Positions 49,401-62,246 of a DNA stretch of 64,000 nt are shown here, one piece after another. Each line of letters starts with the position of its first letter. Position 1 is the stretch's first letter. The DNA is from Pirellulales bacterium (lineage in GTDB: Bacteria; Planctomycetota; Planctomycetia; Pirellulales; JAICIG01). The notes under the pieces are model-generated. The model saw nothing but the letters and a program-made list of their open reading frames with translations, had not been told where the DNA came from and made no database searches. Position numbers and translations under genes: made by a program. The stretch is from assembly GCA_035531595.1 (NCBI GenBank), contig DATKSN010000114.1:11186-75185 (forward strand), read 5' to 3'.

Positions 49401-49934
49401 CACGCCGCTGAGTTGCCCGTGGCCGGGGAGGTCCAAGCGGAAGTCAAAGCCATCGAAAAGCACCATCGCCTGTTGGACGATCCCGACCCCGTGCCGGGGC
49501 TCGTGAACAAGCTAACGGAGGCGTTGCGCGGCGCGATCAACGAAACTCATTCCGCCTGCGCCGCCGCGCGTGAAAAGGGGCTGGAGGGACTCGAAGGCAA
49601 CGACCCCTGGCAAAAACTCACGCCCGAGCAGCGATACGAAATCCTCTCGAAGAACGGCGTCCGGGAAATGCCGGCGATCGCGGTTGGCACAACCGACGAG
49701 GTTCTGACCACGCTGGCGAAAACGCGGATCAGCGAACTGGCCGCGATTCGCGATGCCTTGCCGACCCGCTTCAGCAACGCCCTGGCCACGGCGGCGAAGC
49801 TGCTCGAGCCGAAGGCCCAGCACGTCGATCTCCCGAGCGGAACGATCAAGAACGATGACGACTTGAAGAGTTGGTTGACATCGGCGGAGGATAAGATTCG
49901 TGGAAAACTCAAGGACGGGCCGGTGATCGTGTAG
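46464..49934 (+). CDS. brxC: BREX system P-loop protein BrxC
   Basis: 1156 aa. P-loop GFYGSGKGHLVKVL, Walker B-like LIVLDEVQQY. Size and position (after brxB, before pglX) fit BrxC. Confidence 0.9.
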   Translation: MMNREVYEKDPRTNTLLNQGVVKVTCGYSEQELKTLRWEIENFVCRDQYENGVDRILSTYLANLDQPEQPGVWVSGFYGSGKGHLVKVLQHLWIDFEFPDGAKARGLAKLPTNTHDYFKELTTAAKRLGGLHAAAGTLGSGACESVRLDLLSIIFQSLSLPGEFRTANFVLWLRDEGLEEAVMAAIAKSGLDKDATLANFYVSDPIAKAILKERSDFANKPGDVKLLLEKQFPEKMDVSIDEMIAKIKQALGSHHAPRDGNSGKKGKLPCTLIVLDEVQQYIGDSVDRSKAVQDVQEQCCARLGANVMFVATGQNALSGTPLLQRLQGRFPIPIELHDTDADQVTRELVLKKKPSTEPTIKKLVEDHSGEIERQLAGTTIAFNSRDRQLLVKDYPILPVRRRLWERVLRAVDKAGTGAQLRTQLWIVYDAVQKTADLPLGNVVSGAFLFEHIKTKVLQSGVLLQEISETIARQKQEDEGELRYQLCALIFLIGQLPHNKEPLDAGIRANAETLADLLVTDLTTSSAGLRKTVPELLEKLVASGAVMQVDDEYRMQTREGSEWNQAFQEARNKLIADAGKLAGERSQLLKTQCGEILKKSKLLHGTSKEARKFELHFGADAPDTSGSTVPVWIRDGWEVQEKTVVSDARAAGDSAAVVYGFVKPTKSEELKHAIASHYAATATLNAKGTPSTPEGIEARKAMETRLEQAEGTRNGLIEEILNETAIYTAGGEVVNGILLEGKVQDAARACLDRLFPRFQLGDSPDWHKVIERAKKGDGDALEAMGHKGDPENHAVCKAVIDYVGSGKKGTDVRKQFAGPPCGWPQDAIDAALIVLANGGVLQARSGNEPIAKGKLDQKNMTGAEFRTESVKLTTQEFVAIRGVYKKVGLNSSSGQESLHAPEFLSRVHRLAEDAGGDAPLPKRPETRHLLDMANRVGNDQLKAIYDNKDRLTQEIADWQKRKDLIAKREPHWKELTALLVHAAELPVAGEVQAEVKAIEKHHRLLDDPDPVPGLVNKLTEALRGAINETHSACAAAREKGLEGLEGNDPWQKLTPEQRYEILSKNGVREMPAIAVGTTDEVLTTLAKTRISELAAIRDALPTRFSNALATAAKLLEPKAQHVDLPSGTIKNDDDLKSWLTSAEDKIRGKLKDGPVIV
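47218..47241. repeat. Single REP unit inside brxC, in-frame
   Basis: gtagtcatcacgctccgcgtgatg, translated as ...GSHHAPRDG... Confidence 0.85.
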
Positions 49935-49939
49935 CCATC

Positions 49940-50843
49940 GTAGACCTCACGCTCCGCGTGAGGAAACATCACGCGGAGCGTGATGACTACCGTAGATTTT
50001 ACGCTTGAGCGTGACGAAGCGCCGCGGCGAGATTGGTGACTTCGTCGAGACGACGACGTTACAATGAATCGAACTACCATGAACACACACGCCTCCTCAG
50101 TCCCCGCGATGCCGGTCCACCTGTTCGACGCCGACGCGGAATTATCGATCGTCGAGCGCCGCTTGCCTCATTGGTCGCAGGCCGGCGCGATTTGCTTCAT
50201 CACATGGCGCACGAACGACTCCATGCCCAAGCAAGTCCTCGACGAATGGTACTCCGATCGAAACCATTGGCTTCGATCGCATGGAATCAATCCCGCCGAC
50301 TCGAATTGGCGAGCACGGCTCGCGGAAATCGACCGTCGATCCGCGCGCGACTTTCTCGATACGTTCTGGAACCGCTGGCACGACGCTCTTGACGCGGGAC
50401 ACGGAAAGTGCGTGCTGCGCCGGCCGGACCTCTCGGAAATCGTCGCCAAGAGCCTCCGCCACTTCGACGGCGAGCGGTACGTCATGCTCGACTACGTGGT
50501 GATGCCCAACCATGTCCACCTGCGGGCTTCCTTTCCCGACGAAGGAGCCATGGTGGCACAGTGCGAGTCGTGGAAGCACTTCATGGCCGTGCAAATCAAT
50601 CGACGGCTGGACCGAAAAAAGCGGTTTTGGGAGCAGGATGCGTTCGATCACCTTCTCCGCAGTGAAGAACAATTCCACTACCTTCGCCGGTACATCGCCG
50701 AGAACCCGGCCAAGGCACGTCTTGGCCCGGGTGAGTCCAGGCACTACTCTAAACCACTTTGAAGCTGCGGCCACCGTAGACCTCACGCCACCGTAGACCT
50801 CACGCTCCGCGTGAGGAAACATCACGCGGAGCGTGATGACTAC
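49940..50843 (+). mobile_element. RAYT gene flanked on both sides by REP doublets (REPIN-like), inserted between brxC and pglX
   Basis: Left doublet 49940-49990: gtagacctcacgctccgcgtgagg-aaa-catcacgcggagcgtgatgactac. An identical doublet lies at 50793-50843, preceded by a partial unit at 50776-50790. Confidence 0.8.
50064..50762 (+). CDS. REP-associated tyrosine transposase (RAYT; IS200/IS605 Y1 HUH family)
   Basis: LPHWSQAGAICFITWRTNDSMP, HUH motif VVMPNHVHL, and catalytic-Tyr region FHYLRRYIAENP. It is flanked by REP doublets. Confidence 0.85.
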   Translation: MNRTTMNTHASSVPAMPVHLFDADAELSIVERRLPHWSQAGAICFITWRTNDSMPKQVLDEWYSDRNHWLRSHGINPADSNWRARLAEIDRRSARDFLDTFWNRWHDALDAGHGKCVLRRPDLSEIVAKSLRHFDGERYVMLDYVVMPNHVHLRASFPDEGAMVAQCESWKHFMAVQINRRLDRKKRFWEQDAFDHLLRSEEQFHYLRRYIAENPAKARLGPGESRHYSKPL

Positions 50844-50871
50844 GATCGTGCTCAGCCCGACGCCAGAAACC

Positions 50872-53800
50872 ATGCCCGCACTCGCAACCGACCTTCGCAA
50901 GCAACTCGAAAACGTCTGCATCCAGGCGCGCGACCTGGCCGAGGCCGCGGCGCGCTCCGCCCTGCAAAAACGGGCGGTCGATGTCCCGGAGCCGTTCACG
51001 CACTTCAGCGCCGCCGACAAGGAATTGCGGAACCGCCTCCGCGCTCGCGGGCGCCAAATGGGTGACGTTCGCCACGCCAACAAGACGCAAGCCATCGACC
51101 AGCTCACCCAGGAGCTCGCCTACGAATACTGGCACCGCATGCTCTTTGCCCGCTTCCTGGCCGAGAACAACCTGCTGATAAACACCGAAGGGGTCGCCGT
51201 CAGCCTCGAAGAGTGCGAGGAACTGGCCAAGACCGTAGACGTCACGCTCCGCGTGACGGGCGACGGGACGCATCACGCGGAGCGTGATGTCTACGGTGGC
51301 GCCCCCAACGGCTTCGTCCTGGCCGCGCGCTACGCCAGCCGGATGCTGCCCCAGATTTTTCGCACCGACGACGTGCTGCTCGAAATCGAATTTCCCGCTG
51401 AGCAACGGCTGACTCTTGAAAGACTCCTGGCCAGCTTGCCCAAGGAGACGTTCCTGGCCGACGACAGCCTCGGCTGGGTGTACCAGTTCTGGCAGAGCAA
51501 GCGTAAGGACCAGGTGAACGCGGCCGGCGCGAAGATCGACGCCACGACGCTTTCGGCCGTCACCCAACTCTTCACTGAGCACTACATGGTGGAGTTCCTG
51601 CTTCACAACACGATCGGGGCCTGGTGGGTGGCCAAGGAAGGAGTTGGGCCACGGATCAAACACGGATCAAACACGGATGGGAAGAGAGAATACGCCAATG
51701 GCATTGATCCGAGTTCCATTCGTGCTCCGTCCGTCGCTTTGTCCGATTTCGAATACCTGCGTTGGCGCGACGACGGCACGCCCGCGGCGGGCACGTTCGA
51801 CGGTTGGCCGCGCCGCGCCGCGGAGCTGAAAGTGCTCGACCCCTGCTGCGGCTCGGGGCACTTCCTCGTCGCGGCGTTCAACCTGCTCGTGCCGCTGCGG
51901 ATGGTTGAAATGACTCAGGCGAGCGGGGGGCGTCAGCCCCCTGTTTCCGAAGTGGTCGACGCGGTCCTCCGCGACAACCTGTTCGGGCTGGAGCTCGATC
52001 CCCGCTGCACGCAGATTGCCGCCTTCGCCTTGGCCTTGGCGGCGTGGCGGTATCCCGACCGTAGCCATCACGCTCCGCGTGATGAGGACCGTAGCCATCA
52101 CGCTCCGCGTGATGAAACCGTCACGCGGAGCGTGACGTCTACGGTAGAGCCGCTCGGCTACCGCGAACTGCCGCCCTTGAACATCGCCTGCGTCGGCATT
52201 GGGCCACAGGCCGGCGAGGACGAATGGCTCAAGCTCGCCCAGCAATCGGGCCGGCCGATGAACGCCCTCTCGCGCGAGCCGATCCTCGACGGGCTGCGGA
52301 ACTTGCACGCGCTGTTTTCCAACGCGCCGACCTTGGGTTCGCTCATCGACCCGAATCAAATGTCGGCGGACCTGATCACCGCCGACTATCGAACCTTGCA
52401 GCCCTACCTGGCCGCCGCTTTGGCGGCCGACGACCGTAGTCATGCGGACCGTAGTCATCACGCTCCGCGTGATGGGACCGTCACGCGGAGCGTGACGTCT
52501 ACGATGGACGACGACGCGCGCCAGCGAGCCGTGGCCGCCCAAGGCATGGCCAAAGCCGCCGAGTTGCTCGCCGGCGAATACACGCTGGTCGTCACCAACG
52601 TGCCGTACCTCGGCCGCGGGAAGCAGGATGAGACGCTCAAAAGCTACTTGGAGAAGCACTATGCCGAAGGCAAGGCCGATTTGGCCACCGCCTTCGTGCT
52701 GCGGTGTCTGGAGTTCTGTGCCGGCGGCGGCACGGCGGCGCTGGTGACGCCGCAGAACTGGTTGTTCTTGACAAGCTATACCAGGCTACGGCAACGTCTG
52801 TTGGAAGACAGGACGTGGAATGCGGTCGCTCGATTGGGCGAACGCGCATTTGAGAGCGACGCGGCTGCCGGAGCGTTTGTGGCGATGCCGATGTTGTCGG
52901 CGACAGGGCCCGGCGACGACAACATGGTGGTCGGACTTGACGCGTCGGGGGAGAGGGACAGCTCCGAAAAGGCAAAGGCCTTGTGCCAAAAGCGTCTCAT
53001 GCTCGTCAGCCAAAAGTCACAGTTTGCGAATCCCGATGCCGCGATCAGGATGGAGGTTGTTTCCGGCAAGCTTCTTTCTGAGCATGCTTCATCGACGCAG
53101 GGCTTGAAAACGGGCGATGACGAAAGGTGGCGCAGATTCTTTTGGGAGATTTGGCGAGATGGCGCTCGGTGGCGGCTGCTTCAGAGCACAGTCGAAACTA
53201 CAATCGCTTTCGGTGGAAAGGAAAGTGTAATCGACTGGGCCGGGCGAGGGGAACAAATGGCCCGGCTTCAAGGCATGGCCGCTTGGGGGAGTGCGGGTGT
53301 AGCCGTCAAGCTCATGCGCTCACTACCTGTAACGTTGTACACAGGCGAGGTGTTTGACAGCAACGTATCCCCGGTCGTTCCATATCAACGAGATTTATTA
53401 CCCGCGATCTGGTGTTTCTGTGAGTCGGGTGATTTGGCCAAGGGAATTCGTAAGGTGAATACCAAACTAAACATCGCTGAGGGAAGCCTTGTGAAAATCC
53501 CCTTCGACCTCGCCCACTGGCAGCAGGTGGCCGCCGAGAAGTACCCGAACGGCTTGCCGGAGCCTGAGAGCGACGATCCGACGCAGTGGCTGTTTCACGG
53601 CCGGCCGGAGCAATCGACCGGGCCCTTGCAAGTGGCCGTGGCGCGGATGCTGGGCTACCGTTGGCCGGCGGAGCTCGACGCGTCGATGCGTCTCAGCCGG
53701 CGGGCGCGGGAATTGGTCGAGCGGTGCGACGAGTTGGTCCCTTTCGCCGACGCCAACGGCCTGGTGCCCATCTCCTCGGTGCGCGGCGAGCCGCCGGCGG

Positions 53801-54525
53801 CCGAGCGGTTGCTGGAGTTGCTGCGCGCCACCGTAGGCATCTCGCTCCGCGAGATGAATCCTCACGCGGAGCGTGAGGTCTACGATGGGCGTGATGACTA
53901 CGGTGTCTTGCTCGAGCGGGCGCTTGGCGACGCGGGCTGCAAGCCCGGCACCTCGCTCGACGACTGGCTCCGCAACCAGTTCTTCGAGCAACACTGCAAG
54001 CTGTTCCATAATCGCCCCTTCATCTGGCACATCTGGGACGGCCGCAAGGACGGCTTCTCCTGCCTGGTCAACTACCACAAGCTCAACCACAAGACGCTGG
54101 AAAACCTGACCTACTCGTACCTGGGCGACTGGATCGCGGCCCAGGCCGCGGAGGCCAAGGCCGATAGAACCGGTGCCGGACTGCGACTCGCCGCCGCCCA
54201 GGCGTTGCAAGCCAAGCTCAAGCTGATTTTGGCCGGCGAGCCGCCTTACGACATTTTCGTTCGCTGGAAGCCGCTTTCGGAACAGGCCATCGGCTGGCAC
54301 CCGGAGCTGAACGACGGTGTCCGAATGAATATCCGTCCTTTCATCGAGGCCGACATCCTGCGGAAAAAACCGAACATCAAGTGGACCAAGGACCGCGGCA
54401 AGGAACCCGGGCGGGATAAAGCGGAATACCCCTGGTTCTGGAAGGGCGAGGCGTTCGTGGGGGATCGGGTGAACGACGTACACTTCACCAACGCCGAGAA
54501 ACAGGCGGCGAGGAGCAAGAAGTAA
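50872..54525 (+). CDS. pglX: BREX-1 adenine-specific DNA methyltransferase PglX
   Basis: SAM motif I LDPCCGSGHFLVAAF and motif IV variant VVTNVPYLGRGK, about 1200 aa, positioned after brxC. Start set at the MPALATDL ATG (50872), because the ORF-track start lies inside the REP doublet. Confidence 0.9.
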   Translation: MPALATDLRKQLENVCIQARDLAEAAARSALQKRAVDVPEPFTHFSAADKELRNRLRARGRQMGDVRHANKTQAIDQLTQELAYEYWHRMLFARFLAENNLLINTEGVAVSLEECEELAKTVDVTLRVTGDGTHHAERDVYGGAPNGFVLAARYASRMLPQIFRTDDVLLEIEFPAEQRLTLERLLASLPKETFLADDSLGWVYQFWQSKRKDQVNAAGAKIDATTLSAVTQLFTEHYMVEFLLHNTIGAWWVAKEGVGPRIKHGSNTDGKREYANGIDPSSIRAPSVALSDFEYLRWRDDGTPAAGTFDGWPRRAAELKVLDPCCGSGHFLVAAFNLLVPLRMVEMTQASGGRQPPVSEVVDAVLRDNLFGLELDPRCTQIAAFALALAAWRYPDRSHHAPRDEDRSHHAPRDETVTRSVTSTVEPLGYRELPPLNIACVGIGPQAGEDEWLKLAQQSGRPMNALSREPILDGLRNLHALFSNAPTLGSLIDPNQMSADLITADYRTLQPYLAAALAADDRSHADRSHHAPRDGTVTRSVTSTMDDDARQRAVAAQGMAKAAELLAGEYTLVVTNVPYLGRGKQDETLKSYLEKHYAEGKADLATAFVLRCLEFCAGGGTAALVTPQNWLFLTSYTRLRQRLLEDRTWNAVARLGERAFESDAAAGAFVAMPMLSATGPGDDNMVVGLDASGERDSSEKAKALCQKRLMLVSQKSQFANPDAAIRMEVVSGKLLSEHASSTQGLKTGDDERWRRFFWEIWRDGARWRLLQSTVETTIAFGGKESVIDWAGRGEQMARLQGMAAWGSAGVAVKLMRSLPVTLYTGEVFDSNVSPVVPYQRDLLPAIWCFCESGDLAKGIRKVNTKLNIAEGSLVKIPFDLAHWQQVAAEKYPNGLPEPESDDPTQWLFHGRPEQSTGPLQVAVARMLGYRWPAELDASMRLSRRARELVERCDELVPFADANGLVPISSVRGEPPAAERLLELLRATVGISLREMNPHAEREVYDGRDDYGVLLERALGDAGCKPGTSLDDWLRNQFFEQHCKLFHNRPFIWHIWDGRKDGFSCLVNYHKLNHKTLENLTYSYLGDWIAAQAAEAKADRTGAGLRLAAAQALQAKLKLILAGEPPYDIFVRWKPLSEQAIGWHPELNDGVRMNIRPFIEADILRKKPNIKWTKDRGKEPGRDKAEYPWFWKGEAFVGDRVNDVHFTNAEKQAARSKK
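51235..51294. repeat. REP doublet inside pglX, in-frame (60 nt)
   Basis: gtagacgtcacgctccgcgtgacg-N12-catcacgcggagcgtgatgtctac, translated VDVTLRVTGDGTHHAERDVY. Confidence 0.85.
51649..51736. repeat. CACGGAT-rich 11-mer repeat element inside pglX, in-frame (boundaries approximate)
   Basis: ccacggatcaaacacggatcaaacacggatgggaagagagaatacgccaatgg...ccattcgtgctccgtccgtcg. Same family as the elements at 54527, 56395, 59703 and 60151. Translated PRIKHGSNTDGKREYANGIDPSSIRAPSV. Confidence 0.7.
52061..52142. repeat. REP triplet (two direct units plus one inverted) inside pglX, in-frame
   Basis: gtagccatcacgctccgcgtgatg twice (52061-52084 and 52091-52114), then cgtcacgcggagcgtgacgtctac (52119-52142). 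Translated DRSHHAPRDEDRSHHAPRDETVTRSVTST. Confidence 0.85.
52436..52502. repeat. REP doublet plus a partial unit inside pglX, in-frame
   Basis: gtagtcatgcg (partial), gtagtcatcacgctccgcgtgatg (52451-52474), and cgtcacgcggagcgtgacgtctac (52479-52502). Translated DRSHADRSHHAPRDGTVTRSVTST. Confidence 0.85.
53833..53901. repeat. REP doublet (variant stem) plus a partial unit inside pglX, in-frame
   Basis: gtaggcatctcgctccgcgagatg-aat-cctcacgcggagcgtgaggtctac, then gcgtgatgactac. Translated VGISLREMNPHAEREVYDGRDDY. Confidence 0.85.
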
Positions 54526-54526
54526 G

Positions 54527-54580
54527 GCACGGCTGAAACACGGGCGGAACACGAATGGAAGCGGTAGAATGGAATGGCGG
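54527..54580. repeat. Junction repeat (GAAACACGGGCGGAACACGrATGGAAGnGGTAnAATGG) with a possible -10 box
   Basis: ggcacggctgaaacacgggcggaacacgaatggaagcggtagaatggaatgg. TAGAAT at 54565-54570 lies 45 nt upstream of the ATPase ATG. A near-copy lies at 56405-56447, and a degenerate copy at about 56741-56780 lies upstream of hicB. Confidence 0.5.
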
Positions 54581-54615
54581 CAGGAGAACCCTCAAGGTCC
54601 AGAAGGAAAAAACGG

Positions 54616-55713
54616 ATGATCACGTCGATAACCATCGAAAACTTCAAGAACATTCGGCGGCAGCAGATTGATCTTGAGCCGCTCACGGTCTTCGTCGGCG
54701 CGAACGGAAGTGGCAAGACGAGCGTGCTTGAAGCGATCAATGTGGCTGTTAGAACAGCAACTGGCTCGCCCGAGAAAGTGCCTCCCTACCGACCTAACTG
54801 CGACTGGCTTTATACACGAGGTGGTCACGGCGATTTGAAAATTACCTTTGCGACAGAGCATGGGCAGTTTTGGGTGACGGCAAGTCCACCCATCGCCTTT
54901 CCGCCGCCAATCGAGCTTTTGGGGAAAAGCCAATGGGCCTTTGCCGTGCGTTGTTCGACCGACCTGCGCTTGGAGGACGCAGTCGCACTAGCGAAATCAA
55001 CGGTTTTCTTGGGCCTGTCCGCGTCAAAATTGGCGAAACCGTCGTACTCTGCTCTCAATCCGCCGACGTTGGCGTACAATGGGGGCGGTCTCGCGTCGGT
55101 TCTTGCTCACATGGCTCTGAACGCCCCGGACGTGTTTGACGAATTGGTCTCGCGGTTGCGGGAGTTGGTTCCTCAGTTGAAACGGATTCGCTTCAAGAAG
55201 GCCGCCGTCAAACTCCCGGAGAAGGAGTTGGTGCGTTTTGGCGAGGAAACGATGCGACGGCGATTTTCACGAACCTACCAAGGCGAGGAGCTTCTGTTTG
55301 ATTTCGAAAACGGGTCCAATATCCTGGCGCAAACGGCAAGCGAAGGGACGCTCGTGCTACTTGGGTTGTTGACAGTGGTTCTTCGACCAGAGCGACCCGA
55401 TGTCCTGCTCCTGGACGACCTGGAACACGGCCTTCACCCGTTGGCGCAACAATCGTTGCTCGAAATGCTGCGAAAGCTGATGCAGACGTTTCCTCGATTG
55501 CAGATCGTGGCGACCACCCATTCGCCGTACCTTCTCAACTACCTCTCCCCACAGCAAGTGCGAATCATGGCCATCGGGCCGGATGGCTATACGCGTTGTG
55601 GGCGGCTGACCGATCATCCTAAGTTTTCGACGTGGAAGGACGAGATGGCTCCGGGTGAGATGTGGAGCCTGTTTGGGGAGAAATGGCTCGCGGAAAAGGG
55701 GGCCGCGGAATGA
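54616..55713 (+). CDS. AAA_21/AAA_15-type (ABC/OLD-like) ATPase nested in the BREX locus
   Basis: MITSITIENFKNI, Walker A GANGSGKTS, Walker B LLLDDLEHGLHP, and TTHSPYLL. Start set at 54616 (AAGGA upstream). Confidence 0.85.
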   Translation: MITSITIENFKNIRRQQIDLEPLTVFVGANGSGKTSVLEAINVAVRTATGSPEKVPPYRPNCDWLYTRGGHGDLKITFATEHGQFWVTASPPIAFPPPIELLGKSQWAFAVRCSTDLRLEDAVALAKSTVFLGLSASKLAKPSYSALNPPTLAYNGGGLASVLAHMALNAPDVFDELVSRLRELVPQLKRIRFKKAAVKLPEKELVRFGEETMRRRFSRTYQGEELLFDFENGSNILAQTASEGTLVLLGLLTVVLRPERPDVLLLDDLEHGLHPLAQQSLLEMLRKLMQTFPRLQIVATTHSPYLLNYLSPQQVRIMAIGPDGYTRCGRLTDHPKFSTWKDEMAPGEMWSLFGEKWLAEKGAAE

Positions 55714-56370
55714 GCCTGCAAATCGCCGTCGTCCATGAGGCTGCGGCCGACTTTCAGACGGCCACGAAGCTTGCCGACCGAGCAATGTGCGCGGCCATTA
55801 GCTGGCTCGACGAAGAGCTGCTGGGGACATTTCGCGAACGAGTCGGCGCTTCCGGACGCGGCAGCCGCGCGTCGTGCTATCACCTTCCTCCGGAACGAGT
55901 TCCCCGAACTGGGGGCAATCGTACTGGTCCGAGATCGGGACGATGAGCCGGAGCGACGAGGCGGCCTGGAACAAGCACGCCGCCACAACAACACCCACTT
56001 CGTGATCGTAGTGGGATTTGCCGTTGTGGAACGTGAGAGTTGGGTGATCTGCGGGTATGAGTCTCTCAACGAAGGTGAGTCGGCTTGCCTAGAAGCGGAG
56101 CGAAAGCGGCTCGGCTTCGACCCGCGATTCCGGAGCCACGAACTAACGGCATGTAAGAACGACCAGGCCAAACGCAGCCCGAAGCGGGTTCTTGCCGTCT
56201 TGACCGACGGAGACCACAATCGCGAGCGCCGTTGCTGGCGAGAGACCCCGCTCGAAGTGCTTCGCGACCGCGGAAAGCACAATGGACTTGCGGATTATCT
56301 TGCGGAAGTTGAACAGCGGCTCGCGCCGTTGATCTCGGGTCACGAAATGAGACCGGTGAAACCCTGTTGA
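55710..56370 (+). pseudogene. Toprim/DUF4276-like partner of the ATPase, interrupted by a frameshift
   Basis: The ATG overlaps the ATPase stop (ATGA). Frame A encodes MSLQIAVVHEAAADF...EELLGTFRER and then degenerates to a stop at 55946. Frame +1 encodes ...AITFLRNEFPELGAIVLVRDRDDEP...VVGFAVVERESWVICG... to 56370. The E / DxD / E spacing resembles Toprim. The frame switch lies somewhere in about 55800-55870. Confidence 0.55.
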
Positions 56371-56394
56371 CGAGGGGAACACAAAAAGCCACCG

Positions 56395-56455
56395 ATGAGC
56401 CACCGATGAAACACGGGCGGAACACGGATGGAAGAGGTACAATGGCGTAGTCGAG
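56395..56455. repeat. Junction repeat copy (CACCGATGA 11-mers, GAAACACGGGCGGAACACGGATGGAAGAGGTACAATGG)
   Basis: gccaccgatgagccaccgatgaaacacgggcggaacacggatggaagaggtacaatggcg, with TACAAT at 56438-56443. Confidence 0.6.
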
Positions 56456-56809
56456 TATGGAGCGGCGGACAAGAAACCAAGGCCCTTGAAAAGCAGGATC
56501 AACATGAAGTCGTCGAGCACTGGGCCGTCGATTGGAGCGCGCACGGGAACTGCCACGACCCGCCGCATCGGGCGGCCTGCGGTTTGGGCCTCGGCGTCGC
56601 TTGGTATCGTGACGTGCTGCGGGCCAAGCTCGTTTCGCTGCGTCTGCCGCTTCGCCTGCTGCTGGAGTACAAGGAAAAGCTGACGGCGCAAATCGAGAAA
56701 TTAGAACGACAATTCCATGAGCAACAGTGATTGAGTTCCGGTGGCACGGGCAAAGCAACGGCCGAAAGGGTAGAATGGGATCTGGTGTCACGCCAAACAG
56801 GAGTTTCTC

Positions 56810-57031
56810 ATGAGCACGCGATACACGGTCAGTGACGGCAAGCTCGTCCTGAACCTTGAACCGGCGGAGGAAGGAGGGTACGTCGTGACTTCGCCTCTCG
56901 ACCCCGAGCTGATTACCGAGGGCGAGACCATCGAAGAGGCGTTTGCCAACGCTCGCGACGCCACCGCGGCCCTTAAGCAATCGAGGGTCAAGCTACTGCG
57001 CCGGGTGTCGGCACCGACCTCTCGAGGATAA
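56810..57031 (+). CDS. hicB: HicB-like (UPF0150) antitoxin
   Basis: YTVSDGKLVLNLEPAEEGGYVVTSPLDPELITEGETIEEAFANARDA is HicB-like. AGGAG lies upstream. Confidence 0.7.
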   Translation: MSTRYTVSDGKLVLNLEPAEEGGYVVTSPLDPELITEGETIEEAFANARDATAALKQSRVKLLRRVSAPTSRG

Positions 57032-57042
57032 GATCGCCCCCA

Positions 57043-57231
57043 ATGAATCGCCGGGACGCCACCTGCGCGAGCATGGATGCGTGTTGCACCATCATGGCGC
57101 AAAACACGACGTTTGGCTCAATCCCGCAAACCTTGCCCAGGCGCCGGTCCCGCGGCATTCCAAGATCAAACGCGGCACAGCTCGGGGGGGTGTGCGGAAT
57201 ATTGGGCATTCCGCGCCCACCGGGGCCTTAG
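57043..57231 (+). pseudogene. hicA: HicA toxin gene with two frame disruptions
   Basis: MNRRD is read in the ATG frame. RHLREHGCVLHHHGAKHDVWLNPANLAQAPVPRHSKIKRGTAR is read in the -1 frame. GVCGILGIPRPPGP is read back in the ATG frame. The second switch coincides with a G7 run at 57184-57190. Confidence 0.65.
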
Positions 57232-57252
57232 TCGTTAGTCTTCCTTCAATTC

Positions 57253-59688
57253 ATGGCAACTTTAACGCAACCGACTGTGTTCGACGCTCTGCTCGCCTCG
57301 CTGGCGAAGGCCGCGGACCACAACCGTGATGACGCGGTTGGGCCCGCCGCGGTCCTCTGGCCGGATGAGAAGCGGGAGTGGGAACGGCTCCTGCCCCGGA
57401 TCCGGGTATTGCTGCCGCACTTTCTCGTCTTGGGGCCATATGACAAACCCAACCGCACCGGCCCGGCGATCTGGCTTCGCTACGTCCTGGCGGCCAAGGT
57501 TCCCGACATCACCTGGCCGACAGGCACGGTGCCGATCATCTACCTGCCCGGCGTCAGCCGAGCCACACTGCGCGCGACCGAAGAATGCCCCAACGAGCTG
57601 AAGCCTCTGGCTGAACTCCAATACCGCGGTGCGTTCTGGTCGCAGGTCAATGCCAAGGACTGGACGATCGCCGCGTTCCTGCAAACGAACCACGGCGGCC
57701 TGCAACTCAAGATCGCCAAGGACCAGGCCACGGCGACCGCGATCCGCCGTGCCATCGACAAGCTGCTCGATGTGCCAGTTGCCGACTTGCAAGCCCAGTG
57801 CGCCAATGCCGAGCTTAACAGCCAATTCTTCAACCTGCTCATCAGCGACGATCCTGTGGACGACCTCTTGACCTGGCTTGCCGACCCACAAGCCACCCGC
57901 GAGCGATGGGACACTGACCGCTGGGAAGCCATGTGCGGCGACTCGGTGAAAAACTACGGCTTCGACCCAGCGCGCGACGGGCCGTTGGTCGGCGCCGAGA
58001 AACTCGGCCTGCAAGAGAAGAACGTTTGGAAGACCGCCTGGAAGCGATTCGCGACCGCACCCAGCCGTTACGCCGGCCTCATCGAACAGCTTCGCCGCGC
58101 CAAGCCGCAACCGAAAGGCGCGACCAAAGGGCAGCCGCTTTTCCAAAATGCCGAGGAATGCTGGCCCCAGGACAACGAGGCCGCGGAAGCCGAGCTTCGC
58201 CGGTCGTTGCTGCACGTCGCTTCGGCATCGCCGTCGGAGGCGCGCCAAACGCTCGCGGAGCTGGAAAACCATCACAAACAACGGCGCGAGTGGGTGTGGG
58301 CCAGGCTGCACCTGACACCGTTGGCCAACGCGCTACAACACCTCGCCCAACTGTCACAAGTCACCGAAACGCCGTTGACCGGCGCGACCCTCGCCGACAT
58401 GGTGAATGCCTACACTGGCGAGTTGAATCCTCACGCCACCGTAGACATCTCGCTCCGCGAGATGAATCCTCACGCGGAGCGTGAGGTCTACGATGGCTGG
58501 AAGGCCGATGCCGCGGTGCTCGACGCCCTTGCCGCGGTCTCGCACTCGCAAGATCGCGACGTGATATGCGGCGCCATTTCGCAGGTCTATACACCTTGGC
58601 TTCGCGACGCCGCTGAACTGTTCCAAGAGCGCGTCAAGCACGAGCCGTTACCCGGTCGCGAGTTGTCCCGCTTGTCGGACGTTGCCAGTGGAACCTGCGT
58701 CCTGTTCGCCGACGGTTTGCGGTACGATATTGGGCGGAAACTCAAGGCGGCTCTTGAAGTGAAGTTGGGTTCCGTGCAATTGCGGCACCAATTCGTCGCC
58801 CTGCCCTCCGTGACGCCGACCGCCAAGCCCGCCGTCTCGCCCGTCGCCGATAAGATCAAGGGATCCACGGCGGGCGAAGAATTCCGTCCCTGCGTGGCAG
58901 TGGGCGAAAAAGAACTGACGACTGACCGTTTCCGCAAGCTGCTGGAAGACGACGGTTATCAAATCCTCGGCCCTGCCGACAACGGCGAACCCAAGGGCCG
59001 CGCCTGGACCGAGTTTGGCAACCTCGACAAGACCGGACACCATGAAGGCATCGGACTCGCCAGGCGCATCGGGGAATTGCTCACGACCCTGACACAGCGG
59101 GTTGAGTCGCTCCTGGCCGCCGGTTGGCGAGAAGTCCGCATCGTGACCGACCACGGCTGGTTGCTCGTGCCCAAGTGTTTACCGAAGAGCGATCTGCCGA
59201 AATACCTCACGGCAACCCGCTGGGGGCGCTGTGCCGTCGTCAAGCCGTCGGCCACGGTCGAGTTTCCGTGCTTTTCGTGGTTTTGGGCGGCAGACGTGCG
59301 TATCGCTTGCCCCAGCGGCATTGACAGCTTCATCGCCGGCAAGGAGTACAGCCACGGCGGGCTCAGTTTGCAGGAGTGCGTTGTGCCGCAGCTTACAATC
59401 CAAGCCGCAAGCCAGCCCTTGGTTTCGGCGAGAATCGAGTCGTACAAGTGGGCCGGGCTCCGTTGCCGCGTCAAGGTTGAAGGGGGCTTCGACAACTGCA
59501 CCGTGGACCTGCGAGACAAGGCGGCCGACCCGGCATCCTCCCTGACAGGGGCGAAGTCGGTGGGCAAAGACGGCAGCCTGGCCCTCGTCGTCGAGTACGA
59601 TGCGCGGGATGGCACCGCGGCGATCCTCGTCTTGCTCGACGCGGACGGCAACGTCCTGGAAAAAACGCCCGTGACGGTAGGAGGGTAA
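57253..59688 (+). CDS. pglZ: BREX-1 alkaline-phosphatase-fold protein PglZ
   Basis: 811 aa. CVLFADGLRYDIGRKL and ...IVTDHGWLL are PglZ-domain motifs. Position fits, between pglX and brxL. Confidence 0.9.
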   Translation: MATLTQPTVFDALLASLAKAADHNRDDAVGPAAVLWPDEKREWERLLPRIRVLLPHFLVLGPYDKPNRTGPAIWLRYVLAAKVPDITWPTGTVPIIYLPGVSRATLRATEECPNELKPLAELQYRGAFWSQVNAKDWTIAAFLQTNHGGLQLKIAKDQATATAIRRAIDKLLDVPVADLQAQCANAELNSQFFNLLISDDPVDDLLTWLADPQATRERWDTDRWEAMCGDSVKNYGFDPARDGPLVGAEKLGLQEKNVWKTAWKRFATAPSRYAGLIEQLRRAKPQPKGATKGQPLFQNAEECWPQDNEAAEAELRRSLLHVASASPSEARQTLAELENHHKQRREWVWARLHLTPLANALQHLAQLSQVTETPLTGATLADMVNAYTGELNPHATVDISLREMNPHAEREVYDGWKADAAVLDALAAVSHSQDRDVICGAISQVYTPWLRDAAELFQERVKHEPLPGRELSRLSDVASGTCVLFADGLRYDIGRKLKAALEVKLGSVQLRHQFVALPSVTPTAKPAVSPVADKIKGSTAGEEFRPCVAVGEKELTTDRFRKLLEDDGYQILGPADNGEPKGRAWTEFGNLDKTGHHEGIGLARRIGELLTTLTQRVESLLAAGWREVRIVTDHGWLLVPKCLPKSDLPKYLTATRWGRCAVVKPSATVEFPCFSWFWAADVRIACPSGIDSFIAGKEYSHGGLSLQECVVPQLTIQAASQPLVSARIESYKWAGLRCRVKVEGGFDNCTVDLRDKAADPASSLTGAKSVGKDGSLALVVEYDARDGTAAILVLLDADGNVLEKTPVTVGG
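58426..58491. repeat. REP doublet (variant stem) plus a partial unit inside pglZ, in-frame
   Basis: aatcctcacgcca (partial), gtagacatctcgctccgcgagatg (58441-58464), aat, and cctcacgcggagcgtgaggtctac (58468-58491). Translated NPHATVDISLREMNPHAEREVYDG. Confidence 0.85.
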
Positions 59689-59702
59689 GGTTAAGAAATG
59701 AG

Positions 59703-60182
59703 CCACGGATGAAACACGGATGAAACACGGATAAGAGCACGCATAGGAGCACTGGTTGGATCATGGAATTGCAGCACAAGGAGATCACGGAGCAGATCAT
59801 CGGGGCCGCATTTGAGGTTCATCGAACTCTCGGCTACGGATTTCTGGAAAGGGTGTACCAGCGCGCCTTGCAGGTCGAACTTCGCAATCGCGGCCTCAAG
59901 GCCGAAGTTGCGGCCGGGGTCTGAGTCGTCTACAAGACCGCGGAAGTCGGATTTTACAAACCCGACTTGTTCGTGAACGATTCCGTCATCGTCGAACTCA
60001 AGGTTGCGAAGAGCTACAATTCGGAAGACGAGGCGCAGTTGCTCAATGAATTGAAGTCCACCGGCGTGAAGGTGGGCCTGCTCATCAACTTCGGCAGGAC
60101 CAAAGTCGAGTTCAAACGAATGGTGTTCTGACCGAGGCTTCTATATTCCGTTATCCGTGTTTCATCCGTGTTTCATCCGTGG
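59703..60182. mobile_element. Cassette bounded by perfect 32-bp inverted repeats and carrying a GxxExxY gene
   Basis: ccacggatgaaacacggatgaaacacggataa (59703-59734) is the exact reverse complement of 60151-60182. Mobility is inferred only. Confidence 0.45.
59763..60131 (+). pseudogene. GxxExxY family (PDDEXK_3) protein gene with an in-frame TGA
   Basis: My own translation is MELQHKEITEQIIGAAFEVHRTLGYGFLERVYQRALQVELRNRGLKAEVAAGV*VVYKTAEVGFYKPDLFVNDSVIVELKVAKS...GLLINFGRTKVEFKRMVF. It contains the G-x-x-E-x-x-Y (GFLERVY) and D...ELK motifs. The stop is at 59922-59924. Confidence 0.7.
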
Positions 60183-60200
60183 CCAACGAAGTTTTATCCT

Positions 60201-62246
60201 ATGGAACTTGATCAGCTCGACCGAACCGCCGCCGAAGCGTTCGACGGGTACATCGTCCGCAAGGATCTGGTGCGCAAATTCGCGCGGCAGTACCCCGTGC
60301 CCACCTACGTCTGCGAGTTCCTTCTGGGTCGCTACTGCGCCAGCACGGACGAACAAGAAATCCAGGAAGGCTTGCAGATCGTCGAGCGACAACTCCGCGA
60401 CCGGGCTGTTCGTAGCGGCGAGGAAGAACTGTTCAAGGCCCGCGCCAAGGAGACCGGGTCGGTCAAGATCATCGACGTCATTTCCGCCCGCCTCGACACG
60501 AAAACCAACTCCTTTCTGGCGACGCTTCCCAGCCTGCGACTGAAAGACGTTTCGATCGACGATCGGCTGGTACACGACAACGAACGAATGCTCACGGGCG
60601 GTTTCTACGCCGAGATCGACCTCACCTACGACGCCATCGTCGCCGAAGAGAAAAACGGCAGGCCATTCTCGGTGGCCGGCCTGCGGCCGATCCAGCTCAG
60701 CAAGCGCGAGGTGCTCGACGCGCTTTACGAAGGCCGCAGGCGGTTTGCCACCGCCGACTGGAAACAGTTTCTGCTCCGCGGCGTTGGACTGGAACCCACG
60801 CGGATCACGGGCCGAAACTTGGACGCGATGATTCTGCGCATGGTTCCATTCGTCGAAAACAACTACAACATGGTCGAGCTTGGCCCGAGGGGCACGGGCA
60901 AGAGCCACCTGTTCCAGCAGATCTCCCCCTACGCCCATCTGGTTTCCGGCGGCAAGGCCACCGTCGCACGCATGTTCGTCAACATGTCGTCCGGCCAACG
61001 GGGGCTGGTTTGCCAGTACGACGTGGTCTGCTTCGACGAAGTGTCGGGCGTTTCCTTCGATCAGAAGGACGGCGTCAACATCATGAAGGGCTACATGGAG
61101 TCGGGCGAATTCAGCCGGGGCAAAGAGAGCATCCGGGCTTACGGCAGCGTCGTGATGGTGGGCAACTTTGAGGTCGACGTCGAGCACCAGCAGCGAGTAG
61201 GCCATTTGTTCGGCCCGATGCCGCCCGAAATGCGGAACGACACGGCCCTGATGGATCGCATCCACTGCTACCTGCCCGGTTGGGACGTGCCCAAGATCAG
61301 CGAGGCGATCAAAACCGACCACTTTGGCCTCGTCTCCGATTTCTTGAGTGAATGCTGGAGCCGCTTGCGCAGCCAAAGCCGAATTGCCGGGCTTCAGGGC
61401 CGCCTCACCTACGGCGGCGCCCTGAGCGGACGCGATCAGAATGCCGTGACGAAGACGATCAATGGGCTGTTGAAGCTGATCCACCCCTGCGCGGACGATC
61501 AGGTTAGCGACGACGACCTCGAATGGGCCGTTCGCTTGGCCTTGGAATGCCGCCGGCGGGTGAAGGAGCAGCAAAAACGCATCGGCAGCGCCGAGTTTCG
61601 CAACACCCAATTCAGCTACACCCTCGGCCAGAATGGCGTCGAGAAGTTCGTGGTCACGCCCGAACTCCAGAGCGAAGACCACATTGGCCGCGATCCATTG
61701 CCGGCCGGGCAGGTGTGGGCCATCAGCCCCGGCGGCGAGGACGAGGGTTCCGGCTTGTACCGCATCGAGGTCAACGAGGGATCCGGCAGCGGCGTCAAGA
61801 TCCTCAACCGCCCGGCTCCGCCGGCCTTCGCGGAATCGGTGAAGTACGCTGAAGCCAATCTCAACTCGCGTTCCACGGAGCTCGTCGGCGACCGCAACCC
61901 GCGCGAGCACGAGTTTGCCATCCAGCTTCGCGCCTTCGACGCCAGCAAGAGTGGGCGATCCCTTGGTGTCGCCGCGTGTTTGGCGATGTGCTCCGCCCTG
62001 ATCAACAAGAGCCTTCGCGGCGGTTTGGTTGTTGTTGGCGGAATCAACCTCGGTGGTTCGATTGACCCACTTCACAACGCCATGGACGTGGTTGAAGTCG
62101 CCGCCGAGAAGGGCGCCTCCGTGATCCTCATTCCCGTGACTTCGCGCAAGCAGCTTAATGCGCTGTCCGACGATTTGGCGACCAAGGTCACGCTCGTCTT
62201 TTACAACGACGCCCGCGAGGCCCTCATTAAGGCGATCGCGGACTAG
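60201..62246 (+). CDS. brxL: BREX system Lon protease-like protein BrxL
   Basis: MELDQLDRTAAEAFDGYIVRKDLVRKF..., P-loop GPRGTGKSH, and a C-terminal Lon-protease-like domain (GVAACLAMCSALINKSLRGGLVVVGGINLGGSI). It is the terminal gene of the locus. Start set at 60201, because the ORF-track start lies in the inverted repeat. Confidence 0.9.
   Translation: MELDQLDRTAAEAFDGYIVRKDLVRKFARQYPVPTYVCEFLLGRYCASTDEQEIQEGLQIVERQLRDRAVRSGEEELFKARAKETGSVKIIDVISARLDTKTNSFLATLPSLRLKDVSIDDRLVHDNERMLTGGFYAEIDLTYDAIVAEEKNGRPFSVAGLRPIQLSKREVLDALYEGRRRFATADWKQFLLRGVGLEPTRITGRNLDAMILRMVPFVENNYNMVELGPRGTGKSHLFQQISPYAHLVSGGKATVARMFVNMSSGQRGLVCQYDVVCFDEVSGVSFDQKDGVNIMKGYMESGEFSRGKESIRAYGSVVMVGNFEVDVEHQQRVGHLFGPMPPEMRNDTALMDRIHCYLPGWDVPKISEAIKTDHFGLVSDFLSECWSRLRSQSRIAGLQGRLTYGGALSGRDQNAVTKTINGLLKLIHPCADDQVSDDDLEWAVRLALECRRRVKEQQKRIGSAEFRNTQFSYTLGQNGVEKFVVTPELQSEDHIGRDPLPAGQVWAISPGGEDEGSGLYRIEVNEGSGSGVKILNRPAPPAFAESVKYAEANLNSRSTELVGDRNPREHEFAIQLRAFDASKSGRSLGVAACLAMCSALINKSLRGGLVVVGGINLGGSIDPLHNAMDVVEVAAEKGASVILIPVTSRKQLNALSDDLATKVTLVFYNDAREALIKAIAD

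What the first reader, a model, noticed from the sequence alone, without database searches (positions are those of the whole stretch)
54616..56370. AAA-ATPase plus Toprim/DUF4276-like two-gene module nested between pglX and pglZ (split-OLD / PARIS / AbiL-like architecture)
A 365-aa ABC/OLD-type ATPase (GANGSGKTS, LLLDDLEHGLHP, TTHSP) is translationally coupled by an ATGA overlap to a ~220-aa ORF. That ORF carries E (VVHEAAAD), DxD (VRDRDDE) and a second E (VVERESW) in Toprim-like spacing.

An ATPase plus a small Toprim nuclease is the logic of the OLD, Gabija GajA, PARIS AriAB and AbiL systems. Accessory defence modules are known to nest in BREX loci. I cannot assign this pair to a named, validated system from the sequence alone, so it may represent an uncharacterised variant. 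As assembled, the Toprim-like gene needs a +1 frame change near 55800-55870.
Basis: partly seen in the sequence, partly recalled or inferred. Interest (0 to 1): 0.7.

Follow-up and report, generated by a model that had tools for sequence, protein, structure and literature searches.

The report
Broken ATPase–nuclease defence pair inside BREX
Two coupled genes sitting between pglX and pglZ of a BREX phage-defence operon are a divergent member of a known candidate defence pair (ABC ATPase plus small DUF4276-like Toprim nuclease), but here the nuclease gene is disabled by a 98-base deletion.

Summary
An intact 365-aa OLD/ABC-type ATPase (54616-55713) overlaps by ATGA a second gene that changes frame at 55820/55821.

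The frame change is not a 1-nt slip. It is a 98-nt deletion that removes about 32 codons of a normally 245-aa protein.

The second protein belongs to a large Planctomycetota family (about 1,270 clusters at 50% identity) with no Pfam model. E10, D108-x-D110, E142 and K191 are conserved in 98-100% of members. Its only library match is PADLOC HEC-01B (DUF4276, Toprim superfamily). The ATPase's best matches are HEC-01A.

In every evaluable related locus (about 45) the two genes are adjacent, and 35 of 38 checked junctions share the 4-nt overlap. About half of the loci lie in the same pglX-pglZ slot.

The slot is a cargo hotspot. It can be empty, or hold toxin-antitoxin pairs, bona fide HEC-01, or this pair, which is often decayed.

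OLD-ABC/Toprim pairs embedded in BREX are already described (PARIS in Salmonella, HEC-01, a 2026 BREX survey). This is therefore a new, unannotated member of a known kind, and a pseudogenised copy. HEC-01 itself has no demonstrated activity.

The parts
54616..55713 (+). Intact OLD/ABC-type ATPase gene (365 aa). Walker A is GANGSGKT, signature-like motif SEGT, Walker B LLLDDLE, H-loop TTHS.
   Evidence: Translation. Pfam AAA_21/AAA_15. PADLOC HEC-01A 2.1e-34, AriA 2.4e-29, AbiLi 1e-23. NCBIfam MAD3 2e-29, far below its cut-off. Full-length alignment to homologues at 36-62% identity.
55710..55820 (+). 5' remnant of ORF2 (frame 0, 37 native codons, MSLQIAVVHEAAAD...WLDEELL). It starts in an ATGA overlap with the ATPase stop. 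As encoded, it reads out of frame after the junction to a stop at 55946.
   Evidence: The 4-nt (A/G/T)TGA overlap is present in 35 of the 38 junctions examined in related loci.
55820..55821 (+). Deletion junction. 98 nt (about 32 codons, YERTW...GITA in the closest relative) are missing, which shifts the downstream part to frame +1. Only 2 nt of exact microhomology (imperfect CTTGG/CTGGG) lie at the junction.
   Evidence: DNA alignment with L040, L001 and L002. Protein alignment.
55822..56370 (+). 3' remnant of ORF2 (frame +1, 182 native codons, WGHFANE...RDRDD...VERESW...SPKRVL...CW). GenBank annotates a 199-aa hypothetical protein here.
   Evidence: (P0001, 98% identity, Pirellulales MAG). 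dN/dS against L040 is 0.25.
54525..54572 (+). Intergenic repeat (GAAACACGGxx tandem 11-mers) upstream of the ATPase. A second copy follows ORF2.
   Evidence: Repeat family D5, 88% identity between the two copies. Motif scan. The same element occurs in L040's spacer.
56398..56445 (+). Second copy of the intergenic repeat, just after ORF2.
56428..56730 (+). Further cargo in the same slot: an N-terminally truncated copy (100 aa) of a 148-151-aa protein family with no Pfam match.
   Evidence: BLASTP cluster with ORFs of L062, L063 and L068. No Pfam hit.
56810..57031 (+). hicB-like antitoxin gene (73 aa), apparently intact.
   Evidence: Weak Pfam HicB_lk_antitox hit, 0.0067. Homologue lies next to an intact HicA in L063.
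57043..57231 (+). hicA-like toxin pseudogene (at least 2 frameshifts relative to the intact 64-aa HicA of L063).
   Evidence: The conceptually repaired translation hits Pfam HicA_toxin at 1.3e-6, 28.8 bits. L063 HicA scores 4.1e-9. Reading of the sequence.
50833..54525 (+). pglX (BREX methyltransferase), upstream boundary of the slot.
   Evidence: PADLOC PglX E=0, 1450 bits. Pfam Eco57I/MmeI_Mtase/N6_Mtase.
57253..59688 (+). pglZ, downstream boundary of the slot.
   Evidence: PADLOC PglZ 4.4e-280.

Best explanation
This is an accessory two-gene defence cassette carried as cargo in the pglX-pglZ slot of a type I BREX operon of a Pirellulales (Planctomycetota) genome.

Gene 1 is an OLD-family ABC ATPase. 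Gene 2 belongs to a large, unannotated family that is a remote relative of DUF4276/HEC-01B, the small Toprim-superfamily partner of HEC-01 and of MAD3/MAD4.

Inferred mechanism, by analogy with PARIS:
- The ATPase, whose insert region (residues about 46-240) is hypervariable, acts as sensor and holds the small metal-dependent nuclease inactive.
- A phage cue, plausibly an anti-BREX or anti-restriction factor, triggers ATP-dependent release.
- The nuclease then cuts nucleic acid, giving a back-up or abortive layer behind BREX.

In this genome the effector gene has lost 98 nt. That removes a structured segment and breaks the frame, so the cassette is most likely dead. It sits among other decayed cargo (a truncated 148-aa-family gene and a hicA pseudogene).

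Shown here: gene identities, obligate pairing and coupling, slot occupancy, the deletion. Inferred: nuclease activity, sensor role, trigger, abortive outcome.
For: Family matches:
- ATPase: AAA_21/AAA_15. Top PADLOC hits are HEC-01A, followed by AriA, PtuA and AbiLi.
- ORF2: its only library match is HEC-01B PDLC04196, 6.4e-7, residues 1-129 against profile positions 1-131 of 197. Of 50 intact members, 7 also hit that profile, at E 0.002-0.01.
- Calibration: a bona fide DUF4276 protein (L099; Pfam 3.6e-28) scores only 17.9 bits on PDLC04196. The window protein scores 27.5 bits.
- The HEC-01B prototype is a DUF4276 protein. DUF4276 is assigned to the Toprim superfamily (PMC12065111; Payne et al.).

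Sequence and structure of ORF2:
- Collinear motifs with DUF4276: E after strand 1, F-x-G, RDQD, xRE-x-W/F.
- E10, D14, D108, E142, W144 and K191 are 100% conserved, and D110 98%, in 245 diverse members.
- AF2 model of an intact homologue: pLDDT 93.9, an alpha/beta N-domain plus a helical C-domain.
- The best named structural neighbour is an RloB-like protein (probability 0.96, E 0.011), with primase Toprim hits lower down.

Pairing and context:
- The ATPase is immediately upstream in every evaluable locus (about 45). A 4-nt overlap is present in 35 of 38 junctions.
- Same BREX slot in 14 of 36 genome loci, and in 16 of the 80 PglZ-anchored metagenome loci as a pair or a remnant of it.
- In the same BREX clade the slot is otherwise empty or holds TA modules. 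In a distant clade it holds a bona fide HEC-01.

Decay:
- Deletion shown.
- The model of the deleted protein drops to pLDDT 41-78 in the N-domain.
- Independent ORF2 losses: L040/L044, L059, L063, L073/L075, L036.

ATPase variability: core and C-terminal tail are conserved, the insert is hypervariable.

Literature: PARIS mechanism and BREX embedding.
Against: - No Pfam or NCBIfam model matches ORF2.
- hhalign probability against DUF4276 is only 3-10%.
- Removing the family-specific insert from other members did not improve their HEC-01B scores, so the window's 6.4e-7 is the best case.
- Foldseek against PDB found no Toprim, OLD or AriB structure at E<0.01.
- No PDB sequence hit.
- HEC-01 gave no protection against any phage tested, so even the reference system has no demonstrated function.
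- The PARIS-like mechanism is purely analogical.
- The deletion cannot be checked against reads.
Confidence: 0.7

Rival explanations
1. The pair is not independent cargo. It is a lineage-specific working arm of Planctomycetota BREX, an ATPase-driven nuclease effector or regulator that acts with PglX/PglZ, as MAD3/MAD4 do inside MADS.
For: - In most slot-embedded copies the pair is packed with spacers of about 15-30 nt after pglX and under 25 nt before pglZ.
- In L042 and L043 the ORF2 stop overlaps the pglZ start by 4 nt.
- In MADS, mad3 and mad4 deletions reduce defence, and the lethal mad5 deletion is tolerated when mad3 is removed.
- The ATPase's best NCBIfam hit is MAD3.
Against: - In the PglZ-anchored sample, 11 close-clade BREX loci have pglX and pglZ directly abutting. 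About 13 more carry unrelated cargo.
- About half of the pairs lie outside any BREX locus.
- ORF2 is repeatedly lost while the BREX genes stay intact.
- PARIS in the same slot of Salmonella BREX is dispensable for BREX defence and methylation.
Confidence: 0.12
2. ORF2 is not a Toprim nuclease. It is an unrelated alpha/beta protein (adaptor, regulator or antitoxin-like partner of the ATPase), and the E/DxD/E pattern is only a superficial resemblance.
For: - No Pfam hit.
- Foldseek PDB top hits are generic three-layer alpha/beta folds such as lumazine synthase and reductases, at E>0.01.
- hhalign probability is below 10%.
Against: - PADLOC HEC-01B is the only hit, and it is significant.
- Four collinear motifs are shared with DUF4276.
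- Acidic residues and a lysine are 98-100% conserved.
- The partner ATPase belongs to the same clade as partners of DUF4276, AriB and RloB proteins.
- The best named BFVD neighbour is RloB-like.
- A bona fide DUF4276 pair occupies the identical slot.
Confidence: 0.1
3. The 98-nt gap is a MAG assembly or population-consensus artefact, and the organism carries an intact, functional pair.
For: - The source is a metagenome-assembled genome (P0001 annotation).
- Both ORF2 remnants retain all conserved motifs, and dN/dS against L040 is still below 1 (0.07 and 0.25).
Against: - A clean 98-nt loss with only 2-nt microhomology and no flanking repeat is not a typical assembly collapse.
- Neighbouring cargo (hicA, the 148-aa-family gene) is also degraded.
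- Independent ORF2 lesions occur in several related loci from other assemblies.
Confidence: 0.12
4. It is a PARIS (AriA/AriB) or AbiL (AbiLi/AbiLii) system proper.
For: The ATPase hits AriA (2.4e-29) and AbiLi (1.1e-23) profiles. PARIS occupies the same slot in Salmonella BREX. There is a BFVD RloB-like neighbour.
Against: ORF2 and 50 relatives give no hit to AriB, DUF4435 or RloB models in PADLOC or Pfam. ORF2 is 245 aa, against about 300 aa (35 kDa) for AriB.
Confidence: 0.03

Closest known systems
HEC-01 (PADLOC 'Hma-embedded candidate 01': ABC ATPase HEC-01A + DUF4276/Toprim HEC-01B; Payne et al., bioRxiv 10.1101/2024.01.29.577857)
   Same: - Two co-directional genes: an ABC ATPase followed by a roughly 200-250-aa partner that carries E ... 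RDxD ... RE motifs.
- Found embedded in larger methylation-based defence systems, including BREX.
- These are the best or only PADLOC matches for both window proteins.
- A bona fide HEC-01 sits in the same pglX-pglZ slot in L099.
   Different: - The scores are far below those of true members: 117 against 606 bits for A, 27.5 against 267 bits for B.
- ORF2 fails Pfam DUF4276.
- Its family is 245 aa against 192, with extra structured elements between helix 1 and the RDxD strand, and its own conserved SPKRVL and CW motifs.
- The family is essentially confined to Planctomycetota.
- HEC-01 itself showed no anti-phage activity.
PARIS (AriA OLD-ABC ATPase + AriB DUF4435 Toprim), including the copy embedded in Salmonella D23580 BREX
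   Same: Separate ATPase and small Toprim-type effector genes. The location can be inside a type I BREX operon. It is a plausible 'anti-anti-restriction' back-up to BREX.
   Different: The effector family differs: there is no DUF4435/AriB match. No trigger or target is known. Here the effector gene is broken.
MADS MAD3/MAD4 (AAA/ABC ATPase + DUF4276 homologue inside a methylation-associated defence operon)
   Same: An ATPase plus DUF4276-like pair nested in a methyltransferase-based multi-gene system. MAD3 is the ATPase's best NCBIfam hit. In MADS both genes contribute to defence.
   Different: The MAD3 score of 103 bits is far below the 420-bit cut-off. No mad4 profile hit. The host system is BREX, not MADS. 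The pair is dispensable for many sister BREX loci.
AbiL (AbiLi ATPase + AbiLii RloB-like) and class 1/2 OLD/Gabija nucleases
   Same: OLD-family ABC ATPase working with a Toprim-superfamily nuclease. AbiLi profile hit 1e-23. Weak structural resemblance to an RloB-like protein.
   Different: No RloB Pfam hit. OLD and GajA are single fused polypeptides and Gabija needs a helicase, whereas here there are two separate genes and no helicase.

Membership tests
HEC-01 (PADLOC candidate system) | Gene A matches the HEC-01A ABC-ATPase profiles | tested here: met
   The top three PADLOC hits are HEC-01A (2.1e-34, 8.7e-33, 1.6e-30). The match is weak and in two stretches, compared with a bona fide member at 6.9e-183.
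HEC-01 (PADLOC candidate system) | Gene B matches the HEC-01B profiles | tested here: inconclusive
   The window protein scores 6.4e-7 on PDLC04196 over two-thirds of the profile. Of 50 intact relatives, 7 hit that profile and a few hit other HEC-01B profiles, all at 0.001-0.01. Insert-trimmed relatives do no better.
HEC-01 (PADLOC candidate system) | A and B adjacent on the same strand | tested here: met
   ATGA overlap in the window. A is adjacent and upstream of B in every evaluable locus (about 45); 35 of 38 junctions have the 4-nt overlap.
HEC-01 (PADLOC candidate system) | Anti-phage activity | not testable with these tools
   The prototype gave no protection in the published assay.
Pfam DUF4276 (PF14103) | Score above the Pfam gathering threshold | tested here: not met
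   No hit at E<=1 for the window protein or for 50 relatives. Positive controls pass: HEC-01B prototype at 41 bits and L099 at 99.6 bits.
Pfam DUF4276 (PF14103) | Profile-profile homology to DUF4276 | tested here: inconclusive
   hhalign P=0.0034, probability 9.5%. P=0.013-0.015 with more diverse alignments, though the alignment is collinear over four motifs. hmmsearch per-sequence P is about 3e-4 to 5e-3.
Toprim superfamily | Conserved Glu after strand 1, and DxD after strand 3 | tested here: met
   E10 is 100%, D108 100% and D110 98% conserved in 245 members. They lie at the ends of predicted strands 3-9 and 100-108. The window copy retains them.
Toprim superfamily | Three-layer alpha/beta fold with sheet order 2-1-3-4, superposable on known Toprim domains | tested here: inconclusive
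   The model is confident (pLDDT 93.9). Foldseek against PDB gave no hit at E<0.01. BFVD gave an RloB-like protein at E 0.011, probability 0.96, and primases at E>0.1.
PARIS | AriB (DUF4435 Toprim) partner | tested here: not met
   No AriB or DUF4435 hit in PADLOC or Pfam.
PARIS | AriA-type ABC ATPase | tested here: inconclusive
   The AriA profile scores 2.4e-29 but is outranked by HEC-01A. These ATPase profiles cross-hit broadly.
AbiL | AbiLii / RloB (PF13707) partner | tested here: not met
   No RloB hit in Pfam. Only a weak structural neighbour.
MADS MAD3/MAD4 | MAD3 equivalog score and a mad4 match | tested here: not met
   NF047739 scores 103 bits against a cut-off of 420. No mad4 hit for ORF2 or its relatives.
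Type I BREX (host locus) | brxA, brxB, brxC, pglX, pglZ and brxL in order | tested here: met
   All six match PADLOC profiles, with E from 4.8e-66 to 0.

The most novel reading that the evidence does not exclude
In one Planctomycetota clade of type I BREX, the ATPase plus DUF4276-like pair would be a recruited, operon-integrated nuclease arm rather than a free-standing abortive-infection cassette. It is translationally coupled ATPase to ORF2 to PglZ in some loci. It would cooperate with PglX/PglZ, as MAD3/MAD4 do in MADS, and so give BREX a dedicated ATP-driven Toprim effector. Its repeated loss would reflect autoimmune cost.
Probability: 0.1. Interest if true: 0.65.

Novelty: new member of a known kind. 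Interest (0 to 1): 0.33.

Why it matters
The kind of system is already catalogued: an OLD-type ABC ATPase plus a small Toprim-like effector embedded between pglX and pglZ. Examples are PARIS in Salmonella BREX, HEC-01, and the 2026 BREX survey that reports OLD-ABC-linked nucleases in at least 1,242 taxa across BREX and BREX-related systems. The find therefore does not change how BREX is understood.

It adds three things:
- A large Planctomycetota protein family (about 1,270 clusters at 50% identity) that no Pfam or NCBIfam model covers. Defence annotators will mostly miss it.
- A clear picture of the pglX-pglZ junction as a cargo hotspot in this BREX clade.
- Repeated, independent loss of the putative nuclease with retention of the ATPase, which fits a costly effector.

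For annotation of this window, the practical message is that the second gene is a pseudogene and the cassette is probably inactive.

Tried and rejected
Searches that found nothing useful:
- Pfam and NCBIfam scans of ORF2 and of 50 relatives gave nothing relevant.
- A PDB sequence search with the family profile gave no hit at E<=10.
- Foldseek of the confident intact-homologue model against PDB returned only generic alpha/beta folds at E>0.01.
- Foldseek of the window's deletion variant was equally uninformative, and that model is of low confidence.
- Looking up the GenBank product P0001 to recover the source contig failed; it is not on record.
- The promoter and terminator scan of the slot showed nothing above background.

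Tests of the DUF4276 link that did not strengthen it:
- I tested whether the family-specific insert is what hides the similarity. Trimming it from eight relatives did not raise HEC-01B scores and left hhalign P at about 0.013.
- I tested whether L099's bona fide DUF4276 protein bridges the two families. It does not (P 0.06-0.07).

Ideas rejected:
- PARIS or AbiL membership: no AriB, DUF4435 or RloB match.
- The pair as a core BREX gene: sister loci lack it.
- The 48-nt flanking direct repeat as a target-site duplication or transposon end: the same GAAACACGGAT element occurs in other intergenic spacers of the locus and in L040, so it looks like a generic intergenic repeat.
Full report
**What is in the sequence.**
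The region lies inside a complete type I BREX locus. PADLOC profiles identify:
- BrxA (44997-45908)
- BrxB (45895-46467)
- BrxC (46464-49934)
- PglX (50833-54525)
- PglZ (57253-59688)
- BrxL (60168-62246)

E-values run from 4.8e-66 to 0.

Between pglX and pglZ lies an ORF from the ATG at 54616 to the TGA at 55713. It encodes 365 aa with GANGSGKTS, LLLDDLEHGLHP and TTHSP. It matches Pfam AAA_21 (4.4e-31) and AAA_15 (4.4e-24).

Its stop overlaps, as ATGA, the start of a second gene at 55710. That gene reads MSLQIAVVHEAAADF... in frame 0 and continues as ...WGHFANE...VRDRDDE...VVERESW... in frame +1 up to 56370.

**The frame break is a deletion.**
Homologues of the second protein are 245-250 aa long. 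A protein alignment shows that the window copy lacks about 32 residues between WLDEELLG and WGHF.

A DNA alignment with the closest relative (L040, about 95% identical in the flanks) shows a clean 98-nt gap at window position 55820/55821. Only 2 nt of exact microhomology lie at the junction. Because 98 = 3x32+2, the downstream part is thrown into frame +1.

The AF2 model of an intact homologue is very confident (pLDDT 93.9). It places a short strand and a helix in the missing segment. The model of the window's deleted protein falls to pLDDT 41-78 across the N-terminal domain.

As encoded, the gene would give two products:
- A 78-aa peptide (37 native residues).
- Possibly the 199-aa product that GenBank annotates (P0001, Pirellulales MAG), which lacks the first strand and its invariant Glu.

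I conclude that it is a pseudogene, subject to read-level confirmation.

**What the two proteins are.**
*ATPase.* Its best PADLOC matches are three HEC-01A profiles (2.1e-34 to 1.6e-30), followed by AriA, PDC-M07A, PtuA and AbiLi. Its best NCBIfam match is MAD3, far below the cut-off.

*ORF2.* It has no Pfam or NCBIfam match at E<=1, and neither do 50 relatives. Its single library hit is PADLOC HEC-01B (PDLC04196, 6.4e-7, residues 1-129 against profile positions 1-131 of 197).

*What HEC-01 is.* It is a candidate system of an ABC ATPase plus a Toprim-like protein, found embedded in Hma and other systems. The prototype showed no protection against the phages tested (Payne et al.). The prototype HEC-01B is annotated 'DUF4276 family protein' in the paper's supplementary table, and I confirmed that it matches Pfam DUF4276. 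DUF4276 and RloB have been assigned to the Toprim superfamily, and Mad4 is a DUF4276 homologue (PMC12065111).

**How strong is the DUF4276/Toprim link?** It is only moderate.

Evidence in favour:
- Four collinear motifs are shared with DUF4276: Glu after strand 1, F-x-G, RDQD, xRE-x-(W/F).
- E10, D14, D108, E142, W144 and K191 are 100% conserved, and D110 98%, in 245 diverse members.
- A bona fide DUF4276 protein scores lower (17.9 bits) on PDLC04196 than the window protein does (27.5 bits).
- The best named BFVD structural neighbour is an RloB-like protein (E 0.011, probability 0.96), with primase Toprim domains further down the list.

Evidence against:
- hhalign against a DUF4276 alignment gives P=0.003-0.015, probability 3-10%.
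- Of 50 intact relatives, 7 reach PDLC04196 and a few reach other HEC-01B profiles, all at E 0.001-0.01.
- Trimming the family-specific insert does not help.
- Foldseek against PDB gives no Toprim hit.
- A PDB sequence search is empty.

I therefore file ORF2 as a remote DUF4276/HEC-01B-like family. It is probably Toprim, but it is not a member of Pfam DUF4276.

**Is the pairing conserved?** Yes, very strongly.

Thirty-six genome loci encode an ORF2 relative. All are labelled Planctomycetota MAGs except two contigs of one MAG labelled Alcaligenaceae. The ATPase homologue lies immediately upstream in every evaluable case. In 35 of the 38 junctions examined, the genes share a 4-nt (A/G/T)TGA overlap.

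The family is large: 1,268 clusters at 50% identity with E<=1e-3.

The ATPases split into two clades. The Walker A region, the C-terminal ABC core and a C-terminal tail (LTDHPKFSTWKDEMAPGEMWSLFGEKWL) are 44-82% identical to the window protein in both. Residues 46-240 fall to 11-42% in the divergent clade, and to 11-29% in most of that stretch. This pattern fits a variable sensing insert and a constant partner-binding surface. That reading is an inference.

**Genomic context across relatives.**
Fourteen of the 36 genome loci have the pair in exactly the pglX-pglZ slot, as do L040, L042 and L043. In L042 and L043 the ORF2 stop even overlaps the pglZ start. The other copies are outside BREX. Examples are a copy beside three tyrosine recombinases (L037) and one among housekeeping genes (L041).

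For an unbiased view I anchored a metagenome scan on PglZ. Within the close BREX clade (PglZ at least 58% identical), the evaluable loci split as follows:
- About 14 carry the pair or remnants of it.
- 11 have pglX and pglZ abutting (gap of 60 nt or less).
- About 13 carry other cargo.

The other cargo includes DUF433+DUF5615 toxin-antitoxin pairs, a VapBC-like pair, and HicAB with a 148-aa protein.

In the distant clade none carries this pair. One locus (L099) carries a bona fide HEC-01 in the same slot (HEC-01A 6.9e-183, HEC-01B 1.6e-80, Pfam DUF4276 3.6e-28). So the pair is accessory cargo in a hotspot, not a core BREX gene.

**Decay.**
ORF2 is damaged or missing in several BREX-embedded copies while the ATPase persists:
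- In-frame loss of the VERE region in L040/L044.
- Complete absence in L059 and L063.
- Truncation to about 60 codons in L073/L075 and L036.
- A frameshift in L035.

The window adds another, independent lesion.

dN/dS between the window and L040 is 0.07 for the ORF2 5' part and 0.25 for the 3' part. For comparison, PglZ gives 0.15 and BrxL 0.05. The lesion therefore looks recent.

The window's slot also holds other cargo:
- An N-truncated copy of the 148-aa family (56428-56730).
- An intact hicB-like gene (56810-57031).
- A hicA pseudogene (57043-57231).

Repeated loss of the small partner is what one expects of a costly effector, but this is an inference.

**Mechanism.**
The best-supported reading is a PARIS-like logic. 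In PARIS an OLD-type ABC ATPase senses a phage cue and releases a small Toprim nuclease. Here that would be a back-up layer for BREX.

Nothing in my data shows nuclease activity, a trigger or a target, and HEC-01 itself lacks a phenotype.

The main alternative is that the pair works with BREX as an integrated effector arm, like MAD3/MAD4 in MADS. The tight operon packing favours it. Sister BREX loci without the pair, and the many non-BREX copies, argue against it.

**Novelty.**
ATPase/Toprim pairs nested in BREX are established:
- Salmonella D23580 BREX carries ariAB, and its authors surveyed the cargo lying between PglX and PglZ.
- Payne et al. catalogued genes embedded in BREX.
- A 2026 survey reports OLD-ABC-linked nucleases in at least 1,242 taxa across BREX and BREX-related systems.

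This instance is a new, unannotated and divergent member of that kind, and it is a broken copy. Interest is modest.

Noticed in passing
window 47225-58484 (e.g. 49947-49983, 50800-50836, 51242-51287, 52068-52135, 52458-52495, 53840-53876, 58448-58484); ORF 50064-50762: A palindromic REP-like element (core TCACGCGGAGCGTGA flanked by CGTAGAC/GTCTACG) occurs 16 times inside the BREX locus and only once (with 2 mismatches) in the rest of the 64-kb window, against 0.45 expected by chance. Pairs of copies flank a weak IS200/Y1-transposase (RAYT-like) ORF between brxC and pglX. Several copies lie inside pglX and pglZ as in-frame insertions absent from homologues (PglX aa 135-152, 415-430, 532-554; PglZ about aa 389-396). 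This recalls the Rickettsia palindromic elements found in coding sequence.
   Followed up: partly
window 56428-57231: The slot between ORF2 and pglZ holds further decayed cargo: an N-truncated copy of a 148-151-aa protein family with no Pfam match, an intact hicB-like gene, and a hicA toxin pseudogene with at least 2 frameshifts. The intact arrangement is seen in L063.
   Followed up: partly
window 51647-51694, 54525-54572, 56398-56445, 59701-59748, 60151-60183 (inverted); L040 778-862: Tandem 11-mers GAAACACGGAT form a repeat in the intergenic spacers after pglX, after ORF2, after pglZ and (inverted, 100% complementary, 416 nt apart) before brxL. The same element is in the spacer of a related locus. 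Its function is unknown; it could be a regulatory site or a REP-type element.
   Followed up: partly
L044-L123 (PglZ-anchored metagenome loci): The pglX-pglZ junction of this BREX clade is a cargo hotspot. It can be empty, or hold DUF433+DUF5615 TA pairs (at least 7 loci), a VapBC-like pair, HicAB, a 227-aa unknown protein, a 477-aa protein, bona fide HEC-01 (L099), or the pair studied here.
   Followed up: partly
L001-L043, ATPase homologues: The partner ATPases form two clades (about 55-62% and about 36-40% identity to the window). The ABC core and C-terminal tail are conserved, but the insert (residues 46-240) is hypervariable. The ORF2 partner stays 47-76% identical to a reference family member (P0002) in both clades. 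This suggests diversifying selection on a sensor region.
   Followed up: partly
window 62355-63917: A 520-aa ORF directly downstream of brxL has no Pfam or PADLOC match.
   Followed up: no
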